The translations under genes and the position numbers were made by a program. Below are positions 55,967 through 58,857 of a DNA stretch of 64,000 nt, in pieces. The notes beneath the pieces were generated by a model. That model was not told where the DNA came from, searched no databases, and saw only the letters and a list, made by a program, of their open reading frames with translations. How positions within the stretch are numbered: the stretch's first letter is position 1; each line of letters begins with the position of its first letter. The stretch is from an archaeon (GTDB taxonomy: Archaea > Nanobdellota > Nanobdellia > Pacearchaeales > GW2011-AR1): positions 13,875 to 77,874 of the forward strand of contig JAZDPV010000012.1 in assembly GCA_043797265.1 (NCBI GenBank), written 5' to 3'.

Positions 55967-58857
55967 ATGACATCAATCAATGAAACAGAAAAAGAAATTT
56001 TAACCTTCTGGAAAAAGGATAAGACATTTGAAAAATCACTAAAGAAAACCGAAAAAGGAAAACCCTATATCTTCTACGACGGCCCGCCATTCGCAACCGG
56101 TCTCCCGCACTACGGACACCTCCTCGCCTCGACGCTGAAAGACGTCTTCCCAAGATTCTTCACGATGCAAAGCAGATACGTCAAACGAAACTGGGGATGG
56201 GACTGCCACGGACTCCCCGTCGAATCCATCGCTGAAAAAGAACTCGGCATAAACTCAAAAAACGAAATCGAAAAAATGGGCGTCAAAAAATTCAACGACT
56301 TCTGCCGAACTAAAGTCCTAACCTACGCCGACGACTGGAAAAAATACATCGACAGAATCGGACGATGGGTCGACTTCGACGACGGCTACAAAACAATGGA
56401 CACCAACTACATCGAATCGGTCTGGTGGGCATTCAAGCAACTCTACGAAAAAGGATATTTATACGAAGGCGAAAAAATTCTGCTCTACTGCCCCCGATGT
56501 TCAACCCCGCTATCAAAATCCGAAATCGCAATGGACAACTCTTACAAAATAACAAAGGACACAACCGTCGTCGTAAAATTCCGCCTTCTGCCTACTTCTA
56601 GCGAAGCGGACTACCAGCGAAGCGGACTACCAGCGAAGCGGACTTAAATTTTTCCGAAGGAAAAACTTACGCCCTCGCTTGGACAACAACCCCATGGACA
56701 CTTCCCGGAAACCTCGCCCTCGCAGTCAATCCAAAAATGACATACGCATACATCAAAGACAAAAACGACGGCAACACCTATCTCCTCGCAAAAGAACTAA
56801 TACAAAAATTCTACAAATCCAAAGACGAATACACAATCACCAAAGAAATCAAAGGCAAAGAACTCGAAGGACAAAAATACGAACCACTCTACCCCTACTT
56901 CAAAGACAACCCAAACTCTTTCAAATTCCTGCTCGGAGATTTCGTAACAGCCGAAGACGGAACCGGAATCGTCCACGTATCTCCAATGTTCGGCGAAGAC
57001 GACAACACTATATGTCGAAAATATGAAATCCCCTTAGTAAACCCCGTCGACGAAAACGGGAACTTCACAAAACTCGTAACCGACTACGCAAACAAATACA
57101 TCCACGACACAAACGAGCAAATCGCAGCCGACCTCAAAAAAAATAACAAAGCAATCATGATAAAAAAAACGGAACACGAATACCCGTTCTGCTACCGATG
57201 CGACACAAAACTAATGTATCGCGCGCTCCCCGCTTGGTTCGTCGACATCCAAAAAATCAAAGACAAACTTCTAAAACTAAACCTCAAAATAAATTGGTTC
57301 CCAAAAAATCTCAAAGAAGGCCGAATGCAACACAACATATCAACCGCCCCCGACTGGAACATCACACGAAACAGATACTGGGCAACCGCAATCCCAATTT
57401 GGAAATCACCCTCGGGAAAAATAAAAGTTCTCGGCTCAATCAAAGAATTAGAAAAACTAACCCATAAAAAAATAACAGACTTGCATAAAGACACCTTGGA
57501 TAAAATAAAATTATTCCAAGACGGAGAAACCTACACAAGAATTCCCGAAGTCCTTGACTGCTGGTTCGAATCCGGCGCAATGACCTTCGCACAATTCCAT
57601 TATCCATTTGAAAACAAAAAATATTTCGACGAACACTTCCCGGCTCAATTTGTCGTCGAATACATCGCACAAACCCGAGCATGGTTCTACTATATGATCG
57701 TCCTCTCCGCAATCCTCTTCGACAAAATCCCTTTCGAAAACGTCCTGACAACCGGAACAATACTCGCGGAAGACGGACAAAAAATGTCAAAGTCCCTGAA
57801 AAATTACCCAGACCCTCTCGAAGTCATCAACAAATACGGGGCAGACACTCTGAGATTCTACCTCCTCCAATCTCCGCTAATGAACGCCGAAAACTTCAAC
57901 TTCTCGGAAAAAGGCCTCGACGAAACATACAAGCGAATCACAACCCTGCTCTACAACATCTCAAACTTCTATAAAGAATACCAGCAAGACGACGACAAAA
58001 ATTATCAAAAATCAGACAACCCAATGGACAAATGGATAATCTCACGAACCGAAAACCTAAACACAACCATCCAAAAAAACCTCGAAAAATACGACACAAT
58101 AAAAGCCTGCGCGCTCACAAAAAAATTCATAGACGACCTCTCGACATGGTACATCAGAAACTCCCGCGACAGATTCAACGACGACGACAAATCCGCAAGA
58201 AAAACATTAAGATACGTTCTTGAAAAAACAACAAAAATCCTCGCACCAATAATCCCATTCGCCACAGAAAAAATATACCAAGATATGAACGGCAAAAAAG
58301 AATCAGTCCACCTTCAAGACTACCCCAAGCCAAATCAAAAACTAATAAACAAAAACCTCGAACAAGAAATGGAAATCGCAAGAGAAATAGTTTCAATCGC
58401 GCTAAAAGAAAGAGACAAAGCCCAAATCGGAATCAAGTGGCCACTCGCAAAAGCGCAAATCAAGGCACCAATAAAATTGACAAAAGAGCTCGCAGAAATA
58501 ATAAAAAAAGAACTCAACATAAAAGAAATTGAAATTAAAAACTTCAAAACCAATGAAACAATAACCGCAATCCTCGACACAAAAATAACTCCCGAACTCG
58601 AAGCCGAAGGATTTGCAAGAGAAATCTCAAGAAAAATCCAGGCAGCGCGAAAAAAAGCAGGACTATCAAAACCCGATTCAATCGAACTCGAAATAATATC
58701 AGAGTTCAGCGACAAAATAAAATCGCAACTCGACTTCATTCAAGAAAGAGTCGGAGCAAAAACAATCTCCCTCGACAAATCCAACAAGAAATTTAATCAC
58801 TTTGAAGAAGGAAAAATAAAAGACAAACCCTTCACAATAAAATTCAACAAAATTTAA
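55967..58857 (+). pseudogene. ileS: isoleucyl-tRNA synthetase, reading frame broken as assembled by a 16-nt tandem repeat
   Basis: The upstream ORF has PPFATGLPHYGHLL (HIGH). The downstream frame has [21 protein letters not shown] before its first ATG, and KMSKSLKNY. The two frames differ by +2 across 56600-56645. Confidence 0.85.
56600..56645. repeat. AGCGAAGCGGACTACC x3 (last unit 14 nt) inside ileS
   Basis: Units lie at 56600-56615, 56616-56631 and 56632-45. Each contains GCGAAGC. Confidence 0.95.

What the first reader, a model, noticed from the sequence alone, without database searches (positions are those of the whole stretch)
56590..56740. ileS is frameshifted by a 16-nt tandem repeat, and one or four copies restore the frame
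The upstream ORF ends ...[26 protein letters not shown] at 56647. The conserved continuation [32 protein letters not shown] is open in a different frame, starting before the first ATG of the downstream ORF. Between them lies AGCGAAGCGGAC(TACC) in three copies. With one copy the gene reads ...[25 protein letters not shown] in frame. Each extra 16-nt unit shifts the frame by +1, so two or three copies break it. Four copies restore it and add 16 stop-free residues. A single-unit slip therefore switches an essential, normally single-copy aminoacyl-tRNA synthetase on or off. I see four possible explanations: repeat collapse in assembly, population heterogeneity, a true pseudogene with a second ileS elsewhere, or recoding.
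Basis: seen in the sequence. Interest (0 to 1): 0.75.

Follow-up and report, generated by a model that had tools for sequence, protein, structure and literature searches.

The report
IleRS gene one repeat unit short
The only isoleucyl-tRNA synthetase gene of this small DPANN archaeon is split by a perfect 16-base tandem repeat that has one unit fewer than the intact, in-frame version in its closest relative, most likely through an assembly miscount or repeat slippage, not a genetic switch.

Summary
Window 56600-56644 holds 2.8 perfect copies of AGCGAAGCGGACTACC. They split an otherwise intact ileS into a 226-aa ORF and a downstream open frame.

The closest public IleRS (GCA_043799185.1) carries the same unit at the same site in 3.8 copies, in frame, and reads exactly as the predicted four-copy peptide.

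The array is one of a genus-wide class of perfect non-triplet tandem arrays (7, 10, 14 and 16 nt). They are often paired with a hairpin and are translated in frame inside conserved genes.

- ileS is the only array-linked frameshift in this genome.
- There is no second IleRS.
- Both halves are under purifying selection.
- No frameshift, bypass or intron signal is shared with relatives.

A second MAG of the genus has both its 16-mer arrays (ileS and gatD) shortened to 40-43 nt and out of frame. Adding two units restores both to the lengths seen in orthologues.

This genome was assembled by a de Bruijn method with final k=141. A 61-nt array would collapse to exactly 45 nt at k=39.

Most likely this is an assembly collapse, or unit-number heterogeneity, of a functional 3.8-unit gene. 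Reads are needed to settle it.

The parts
55967..56647 (+). 5' ORF of ileS. Residues 1-211 are the IleRS N-terminal part (HIGH motif PHYGH). The next 15 residues ([15 protein letters not shown]) are encoded by the array, followed by a TAA stop.
   Evidence: NCBIfam TIGR00392 ileS matches model positions 7-214. 90% identical to the G023 IleRS.
56600..56644 (+). Perfect tandem array, 2.8 copies of the 16-nt unit AGCGAAGCGGACTACC. It is one unit shorter than the in-frame 3.8-copy array at the same site in L104.
56645..56647 (+). TAA stop in the upstream frame, directly after the last partial unit (codons ACT TAA).
56649..56665 (+). Hairpin TTTTTCC-GAA-GGAAAAA immediately 3' of the array. A 7-11 bp hairpin with a GAA or AAA triloop follows the array in all 11 array-bearing ileS genes and is missing from the 17 array-less ones. 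The stems differ between species but stay paired.
   Evidence: sequences.
56602..58857 (+). Downstream open frame holding the rest of IleRS from ...[23 protein letters not shown] (editing-domain threonine-rich motif, KMSKS, anticodon-binding domain). The first ATG is only at 56737.
   Evidence: NCBIfam ileS matches model positions 221-851. 85% identical to P0002.

Best explanation
The array is a real, normally translated insertion. It consists of a perfect 16-nt tandem array followed by a short hairpin. It sits in a beta-turn at the entrance of the CP1 editing domain of IleRS in a Pacearchaeota-like DPANN archaeon.

In its working form it has 3.8 units (61 nt) and adds a 26-residue surface loop (...[20 protein letters not shown]...), as in the closest relative. 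The window carries 2.8 units, one unit (16 nt) fewer. This shifts the frame by -1 and stops translation after 226 residues.

The lost unit is most likely not a property of the living cells. The probable causes are:
- The iterative de Bruijn assembly (final k=141) kept the collapsed traversal of the repeat loop. At k=39 that traversal is exactly 45 nt for a true 61-nt array.
- Alternatively, the assembly picked a slipped variant from a population in which the unit number varies.

Shown: the array, the frames, the in-frame 3.8-unit orthologue, the single copy of ileS, purifying selection on both halves, and the k=141 signature. Inferred: that the reads of this sample mostly carry 3.8 units.
For: - L104 (GCA_043799185.1) has the identical unit at the same slot in 3.8 copies, in frame. 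ileS is 85.6% identical in DNA overall and the flanks are near-identical.
- A 26-aa loop of this size is also present in G024. The array-coded residues replace about one residue between two strands of solved yeast-type IleRS.
- ileS is the only array-linked frameshift in G000. 27 of the 67 perfect arrays of 26 nt or more (13 of the 19 heptamer arrays) lie well inside conserved genes, spanned in one frame by 52-86% identical matches to G023; the other arrays lie at gene edges or in intergenic DNA.
- Both halves of ileS have dN/dS of 0.08-0.17 and no other lesion.
- G051 (CSMAG_2291, a k127 contig) has both of the 16-mer arrays found in the 251 kb I read shortened to 40 and 43 nt and out of frame, in ileS and in gatD. 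Adding two units restores both, to 72 and 75 nt, the size range of in-frame orthologues at 61-73 nt.
- G000 contig ends overlap by exactly 141 nt at five junctions. A period-16 array of 61 nt is a loop at k<=45, and its minimal traversal at k=39 is 45 nt, the observed length.
- PMC9879509 reports that assemblers often collapse such repeats and that unit number varies within a population.
Against: - No reads are available, so the unit count in the sample is untested.
- The 73-nt gatD array of the same family in the same assembly was not collapsed, so collapse is not systematic in G000.
- The G051 lengths fit an early k stage (37) rather than the last unresolved one.
- G000 also has +1 frameshifts at three A10 runs in conserved genes. 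These could mean real slippage mutations in this lineage rather than assembly error.
- No alternative allele of this strain exists in the public protein or contig collections searched.
Confidence: 0.65

Rival explanations
1. The one-unit deletion is real and is the majority allele in the sampled population. It arose by slipped-strand mispairing, so ileS is a very recent null allele. The lineage would then be dying, or complemented by an ileS in the unassembled 17% of the genome or in other genome copies of the same cell.
For: - Perfect arrays are slippage-prone, and unit number differs between relatives at 3.8, 2.8 and 2.5 copies.
- G000 also has +1 frameshifts at A10 runs in Hef, a flippase and a 242-aa gene, where G023 has interrupted runs. 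This is a slippage signature.
- The genome is only 83% complete.
Against: - IleRS is essential. No second IleRS was found: the other class Ia hits are ValRS and LeuRS.
- Each relative has a single ileS.
- There is no decay elsewhere in the gene, and dN/dS is 0.08-0.17.
- A lethal allele cannot be the majority without rescue.
Confidence: 0.15
2. The 2.8-unit gene is real and IleRS is still made by translational re-pairing on the repeat. Peptidyl-tRNA(Thr) on ACT (56642-56644), with TAA in the A site, slips back 16 nt to the identical ACT of the preceding unit (56626-56628). This yields exactly the 3.8-unit protein. A forward hop of 32 nt would yield the one-unit protein.
For: - The sequence allows it: matched codons one period apart, and a stop codon directly after the take-off codon.
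- The product would equal the natural protein of L104.
- A hairpin lies 5 nt downstream.
- Two MAGs of the genus are out of frame at this array.
Against: - The arrangement is not conserved. G051 needs the opposite shift (+1, not -1) and has no stop after the array.
- 34 of 36 genus members are simply in frame.
- There is no slippery heptamer.
- The RNA fold of the region is not unusual (z = -0.7).
- gatD of G051 is also broken, which fits an artefact better.
Confidence: 0.07
3. The array is an adaptive contingency locus. Unit-number slippage switches IleRS on and off, for example to enter dormancy.
For: A repeat unit that is not a multiple of three inside a coding region is the classic architecture of phase-variable genes. 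Unit number differs among three genomes.
Against: - The gene is essential and single-copy. No known phase-variable locus is of that kind.
- Arrays of the same class sit in many housekeeping genes and are in frame wherever they lie inside a gene.
- Units differ between species at the same slot. This argues against a conserved regulatory device.
Confidence: 0.03
4. The array is removed from the mRNA (an archaeal bulge-helix-bulge intron or similar), or the two ORFs work as a split enzyme.
For: The organism is an archaeon. DPANN lineages are known for split genes (my own knowledge). The break lies in a surface loop.
Against: - The BHB scan gave only weak AU-rich candidates, none shared between G000 and G051.
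- Arrays inside genes are in frame, so they are translated rather than excised.
- No start codon lies upstream of the essential WTTTPWT motif in the downstream frame. G051 has no Met at the site of the window's first ATG.
Confidence: 0.03

Closest known systems
Perfect tandem repeats (TRs and aaTRs) of Borg extrachromosomal elements of Methanoperedens (PMC9879509)
   Same: - Head-to-tail, mismatch-free units occur both between genes and inside ORFs.
- They are translated without breaking the ORF.
- Partial repeats flank the arrays.
- Orthologous sites in relatives carry different repeats or none.
- Unit number varies within populations.
- Assemblers collapse them.
   Different: - In Borgs every in-ORF unit is divisible by three. 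Here the units are 7, 10, 14 or 16 nt, so three units make one peptide repeat and any single-unit slip is a frameshift.
- Here the arrays sit in core housekeeping genes of a cellular genome (IleRS, GatD, LeuRS and others).
- They are often next to a hairpin.
- The same few units recur at many loci within one genome.
Simple-sequence-repeat phase variation by slipped-strand mispairing (contingency loci of Neisseria, Haemophilus and Mycoplasma, e.g. PMC5084427)
   Same: A coding repeat whose unit is not a multiple of three, so that gain or loss of one unit switches the frame.
   Different: Known loci are dispensable surface or restriction-modification genes with short units (1-7 nt) and many copies. 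Here an essential single-copy synthetase carries 16-nt units. There is no evidence of reversible switching.
Programmed translational bypassing (phage T4 gene 60; byps of Magnusiomyces mitochondria). From my own knowledge, not tested against papers here.
   Same: Matched take-off and landing codons; a stop codon after the take-off codon in the window; a short insert inside an essential gene.
   Different: The arrangement is not conserved in relatives. The other out-of-frame genome needs a different jump. The same inserts are normally translated in frame.
Rickettsia palindromic elements inserted in frame into protein genes. From my own knowledge.
   Same: Short structured DNA modules that sit inside conserved genes and are translated as surface insertions.
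   Different: Rickettsia palindromic elements are 100-150 bp dispersed copies of one sequence family without internal tandem repeats. Here the module is a roughly 30-75 nt perfect array plus a roughly 20-nt hairpin whose sequence differs from locus to locus.

Membership tests
Isoleucyl-tRNA synthetase (class Ia, NCBIfam TIGR00392) | HIGH and KMSKS catalytic motifs and the threonine-rich editing motif | tested here: met
   PHYGH in the 5' ORF. KMSKS and WTTTPWT in the downstream frame.
Isoleucyl-tRNA synthetase (class Ia, NCBIfam TIGR00392) | Full-length match to the family model | tested here: met
   The N part matches model positions 7-214 (255 bits) and the C part 221-851 (606.5 bits). The array falls between positions 214 and 221.
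Isoleucyl-tRNA synthetase (class Ia, NCBIfam TIGR00392) | One uninterrupted reading frame | tested here: not met
   The gene is split at 56645-56647, and the downstream frame is -1.
Pseudogene backed by a second functional copy | A second ileS in the genome | tested here: not met
   The only other hits are ValRS (C14) and bacterial-type LeuRS (C1). The genome is 83% complete, so absence is not proven.
Pseudogene backed by a second functional copy | Further lesions or relaxed selection | tested here: not met
   No other stop or frameshift. dN/dS is 0.08-0.10 for the N part and 0.135-0.167 for the C part against two relatives.
Phase-variable contingency locus | Coding repeat with a unit that is not a multiple of three | tested here: met
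   16-nt unit.
Phase-variable contingency locus | Unit number varies within a population and switches reversibly | not testable with these tools
   No reads. Between genomes the count is 3.8, 2.8 and 2.5.
Phase-variable contingency locus | The gene is dispensable, so the off state is viable | tested here: not met
   It is the only IleRS of the genome. Every relative has one.
Borg-type perfect tandem repeats in ORFs (aaTRs) | Perfect head-to-tail units, rapidly changing between relatives | tested here: met
   100% matches. At the same ileS slot other species carry 7-, 8- or 16-nt units of different sequence.
Borg-type perfect tandem repeats in ORFs (aaTRs) | In-ORF unit length divisible by three | tested here: not met
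   Units of 7, 10, 14 and 16 nt lie inside genes. The Borg rule is taken from PMC9879509.
Programmed -1 or +1 ribosomal frameshift | Slippery site, with the same shift conserved in relatives | tested here: not met
   No X XXY YYZ site lies in the overlap 56602-56647. G000 needs -1 and G051 needs +1.
Gene-60-type translational bypass | Matched take-off and landing codons with a stop after take-off, conserved among relatives | tested here: inconclusive
   Matched codons are trivially present, and ACT-TAA is present in the window. The arrangement is absent in G051 and unnecessary in 34 of 36 relatives. Translation was not tested.
Archaeal bulge-helix-bulge intron | Two 3-nt bulges around a 4-bp helix with flanking helices, at frame-restoring positions | tested here: not met
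   Only candidates with 2-4 bp AU-rich outer helices were found, none homologous between G000 and G051. The fold z-score is -0.7.

The most novel reading that the evidence does not exclude
The 2.8-unit allele is what the cells really carry, and full-length IleRS is still produced. One route is a 16-nt backward re-pairing of peptidyl-tRNA(Thr) from ACT-TAA onto the ACT of the preceding unit, which gives exactly the protein of the 3.8-unit relative. The other is unit number slipping so fast that cells hold mixed alleles. In that case essential translation genes of this DPANN genus (ileS, gatD) would sit on non-triplet slippery arrays that are tolerated or exploited.
Probability: 0.08. Interest if true: 0.9.

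Novelty: new variant of a known kind. Interest (0 to 1): 0.45.

Why it matters
Taken alone, the frameshift is probably a warning about metagenome assemblies. Perfect short tandem arrays can lose units, and that can make an essential gene look broken.

The context is less ordinary. In this genus, dozens of conserved genes carry perfect tandem arrays whose units are not multiples of three. The arrays are often beside a hairpin. The unit sequence differs between species at the same site but recurs across sites within a genome. Every such array is one slip away from a frameshift.

If the arrays are actively formed or homogenised, they would be a new source of fast protein-loop evolution in cellular archaea. 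They would also be a steady mutational hazard. Until now, comparable arrays have been described only for Borg elements.

Tried and rejected
- **Second ileS:** searched the whole genome with the C-terminal ORF. Only ValRS and LeuRS came up.
- **Other assemblies of the same strain:** the protein search found nothing above 85% identity except the window's own ORF. An exact scan of metagenome contigs for the left flank found nothing.
- **Scan for the unit in tandem:** this found only gatD arrays in two metagenome contigs and the ileS of CSMAG_2291 among genomes.
- **Programmed frameshift:** no slippery site, and G000 and G051 need opposite shifts.
- **BHB intron:** the scan was negative.
- **Stable RNA structure over the array:** not unusual.
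- **Split enzyme:** no start codon lies upstream of WTTTPWT.
- **Rfam:** only two tRNAs in the window.
- **First split-gene screen against G023:** swamped by conserved non-coding frames. It was usable only after restricting to dominant frames of at least 200 aa. The apparent breaks in G023 turned out to be gene boundaries.
- **Array-length peak:** I considered that the 28-33 nt peak of heptamer arrays might itself be an assembly artefact. I rejected this because those arrays are in frame wherever they lie inside genes and agree between independent assemblies.
- **Literature:** searches for such arrays in DPANN or Pacearchaeota found nothing specific.

Full report
**1. The observation**

Window 56600-56644 is a perfect tandem array: period 16, 2.8 copies, unit AGCGAAGCGGACTACC.

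The ORF 55967-56647 encodes the first 211 residues of an isoleucyl-tRNA synthetase (HIGH motif PHYGH). It then reads through the array as [15 protein letters not shown] and stops at TAA 56645-56647.

The rest of the enzyme is open in the -1 frame from 56602: [20 protein letters not shown]..., KMSKS and the anticodon-binding domain. This frame has no ATG, GTG or TTG before 56737.

NCBIfam's ileS model matches positions 7-214 in the first piece and 221-851 in the second, so the array sits in a gap of the family model.

**2. The organism and its other synthetases**

The window is C12:13875-77874 of a 625-kb, 18-contig genome. It is 83% complete with 0.08% contamination.

Source names attached to the closest IleRS proteins are 'archaeon', 'Nanoarchaeota archaeon' and 'Candidatus Pacearchaeota archaeon'. 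This is therefore a DPANN archaeon.

The only other class Ia hits in the genome are ValRS (C14) and a bacterial-type LeuRS (C1).

**3. The four-copy form exists**

Among 120 related IleRS proteins, the closest is P0002 (85% identity, NCBI GCA_043799185.1). Its loop reads ...[47 protein letters not shown].

Its DNA (L104) carries the identical unit at the same position in 3.8 copies, with near-identical flanks. ileS as a whole is 85.6% identical in DNA.

The window's gene is that form minus one unit.

Against solved yeast-type IleRS, the 27 array-coded residues replace about one residue between the strands ...VTIGFNVI and [15 protein letters not shown]. The insertion is therefore in a beta-turn at the entrance of the CP1 editing domain. 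A loop of the same length also occurs in G024.

**4. The gene is otherwise healthy**

Against G023 and L104, dN/dS is 0.08-0.10 for the part before the array and 0.135-0.167 for the part after it. There is no other stop or frameshift.

In a survey of the genus, 36 genomes have a strong ileS match. Of these, 34 have open frames of 944-1002 aa. Only G000 and G051 are truncated.

**5. The array belongs to a genus-wide class**

The motif ACTWCCAGCGAAGCGGACT occurs 19 times in the genome against 0.5 expected. It appears singly or in arrays:
- between genes;
- in frame in gatD (4.6 units, peptide [25 protein letters not shown]);
- in a Trm5b-like gene.

More broadly, G000 and its closest relative G023 (whole genome fetched) both hold many perfect arrays:
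- period 7 (peak at 28-33 nt);
- period 10 (TCCGTGTTNN, 27 nt);
- periods 14 and 16.

Of the 67 perfect arrays of 26 nt or more in G000, 27 (13 of the 19 heptamer arrays) lie well inside conserved genes, spanned in one frame by 52-86% identical matches to G023. The others lie at gene edges or in intergenic DNA, which includes the ileS array. The arrays inside genes are therefore translated.

At orthologous sites the two species often carry arrays of similar length but with different units. Within one genome the same few units recur at many loci.

The arrays lie next to perfect hairpins with stems of 7 bp or more in 41% (G000) and 29% (G023) of cases, against about 1.5% at random positions.

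In ileS itself, all 11 array-bearing genes examined have a 7-11 bp hairpin with a GAA or AAA triloop directly after the array. The window's hairpin is at 56649-56665. The stems differ between species but remain paired. The 17 genes without an array lack the hairpin.

The closest described phenomenon is the perfect tandem repeats of Borg elements, but there all in-ORF units are multiples of three.

**6. Is ileS special?**

A screen of G000 against G023 found ileS to be the only frameshift at an array.

The other breaks in conserved genes are of different kinds:
- +1 insertions at three A10 runs, in Hef, a flippase and a 242-aa gene. G023 has no run of 10.
- A break near the C-terminus of CDC48.
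- TAA-CTC-TAA inside SMC.

**7. The second out-of-frame genome**

A scan of one genome per species for the unit in tandem found one hit: the ileS of 'archaeon isolate CSMAG_2291' (a k127 contig at 59.7x coverage, listed as both G041 and G051, same genus). It has about 2.5 units, plus a 4-nt loss in the first unit, at the same slot.

It is also out of frame, but by +1 rather than -1. No stop follows the array. That excludes a common frameshift or bypass signal.

In the 251 kb of that genome that I read, gatD is also frameshifted at its 16-mer array (AGCGAAGCGTCCTACC, 2.7 units, 43 nt).

Adding two units restores both genes, giving arrays of 72 and 75 nt. That is the size range of in-frame orthologues:
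- 61 nt in L104 ileS;
- 73 nt in G000 gatD;
- about 70 nt in two metagenome contigs.

Two essential genes broken at once, both by arrays shortened to 40-43 nt, is far easier to explain as an assembly artefact than as biology.

**8. Assembly arithmetic (inference)**

G000 contig ends overlap by exactly 141 nt at five junctions. This is the signature of a de Bruijn assembly ending at k=141.

From memory, MEGAHIT's default k list is 21, 29, 39, 59, ... 141, and it carries contigs of each k forward into the next round.

A period-16 array of 61 nt is a loop in the graph for k<=45. At k=39 the shortest traversal with the right phase is 45 nt, which is the observed length.

The two G051 arrays (40 and 43 nt) fit the window for k=37 in a 27-127 series.

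The fit is not proof. The 73-nt gatD array of G000 was assembled intact.

The Borg paper states that assemblers often collapse such repeats, and that reads within one population can differ by one unit.

**9. Alternatives**

- **Stable RNA structure over the array:** none. Fold z = -0.7.
- **BHB intron:** only weak AU-rich motifs.
- **Programmed frameshift:** no slippery heptamer.
- **Split enzyme:** no start codon.
- **Bypass:** one route cannot be excluded from sequence. With ACT in the P site and TAA in the A site, a 16-nt backward re-pairing onto the ACT of the previous unit would give exactly the 3.8-unit protein. This arrangement is not shared with G051.
- **Real majority null allele of the only IleRS:** not viable without rescue.

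**10. Verdict**

The array is real and normally translated. The functional gene has 3.8 units.

The 2.8-unit frameshift in this window is most likely an assembly collapse or an unresolved unit-number variant (confidence about 0.65). Other possibilities are:
- a real recent slippage mutation, about 0.15;
- recoding, about 0.07;
- an adaptive switch, or RNA excision or a split enzyme, about 0.03 each.

Counting units in spanning reads would settle it.

The more interesting result is the array-plus-hairpin class itself. I did not find it described in the papers searched.

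Noticed in passing
window 18407-18438, 26278-26306, 47395-47429 and 52791-52824 (inside genes); 43839-43871 (at a gene edge); 53947-53977 (no matching gene); also G000 C1:22615, C2:41868, C2:52812, C3:27417, C16:13016 and C16:13569: Perfect arrays of 7- or 14-nt units, about 28-34 nt long. 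Many lie in frame inside conserved genes and encode loops such as SQVAGRRSQVA or EVRSQKSEVR. At orthologous sites G023 has arrays of similar length but different units, while a few units recur at many loci within one genome. Perfect hairpins flank 41% (G000) and 29% (G023) of them, against about 1.5% at random positions.
   Followed up: partly
window 22768-22794, 62319-62345, 62760-62787; G000 C1:5262-5288 (in LeuRS): A family of 10-nt arrays, (TCCGTGTTNN) x2.7, with conserved flanks. In the sense orientation they encode SRMNTDEH-like peptides inside genes. The two variable bases are identical within an array but differ between loci. G023 has the same family.
   Followed up: partly
window 46394-46451 and 62114-62123: Intergenic members of the same 16-nt family as the ileS array. 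One is an array of ACTTCCAGCGAAGCGG units (three full copies, with an extra ACTTCCA inserted before the last) between two minus-strand genes. The other is a single copy just past the end of a gene.
   Followed up: partly
L118-L120 (G051 C5:59230-59620, minus strand): gatD of CSMAG_2291 is frameshifted at its own 16-mer array (AGCGAAGCGTCCTACC x2.7, 43 nt). Adding two units restores the frame.
   Followed up: yes
G000 C2:~50825 (L099), C18:~68950 (L100), C2:~20360 (L102); outside the window: Three conserved genes (Hef nuclease/helicase, a flippase-like protein and a 242-aa protein) carry +1 frameshifts at runs of exactly ten A. G000 has five such runs and G023 has none.
   Followed up: partly
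G000 C12:88550-88558 (L101), outside the window: An SMC-like gene (955 aa in G023) is interrupted by TAA-CTC-TAA, a duplicated CTCTAA, with both flanks 83-94% identical to G023.
   Followed up: no
G000 contig ends: C15:1-28, C12:121942-122015, C6:8385-8620, C18:5-183: Several contigs end in tandem repeats. Five pairs of contig ends overlap by exactly 141 nt, which suggests a de Bruijn assembly with final k=141 that breaks at repeats.
   Followed up: partly
G000 C3:10119-10757 (L105): A reverse-transcriptase gene (Pfam RVT_1, 63.5 bits) lies in this 625-kb genome. I did not test whether it belongs to a diversity-generating retroelement or has any link to the arrays.
   Followed up: no
G000 C1:3517-6048 (L003:958-3489, minus strand): The LeuRS of this archaeon scores 892 bits on the bacterial leuS model against 226 bits on the archaeal one. 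This suggests a bacterial-type LeuRS.
   Followed up: no
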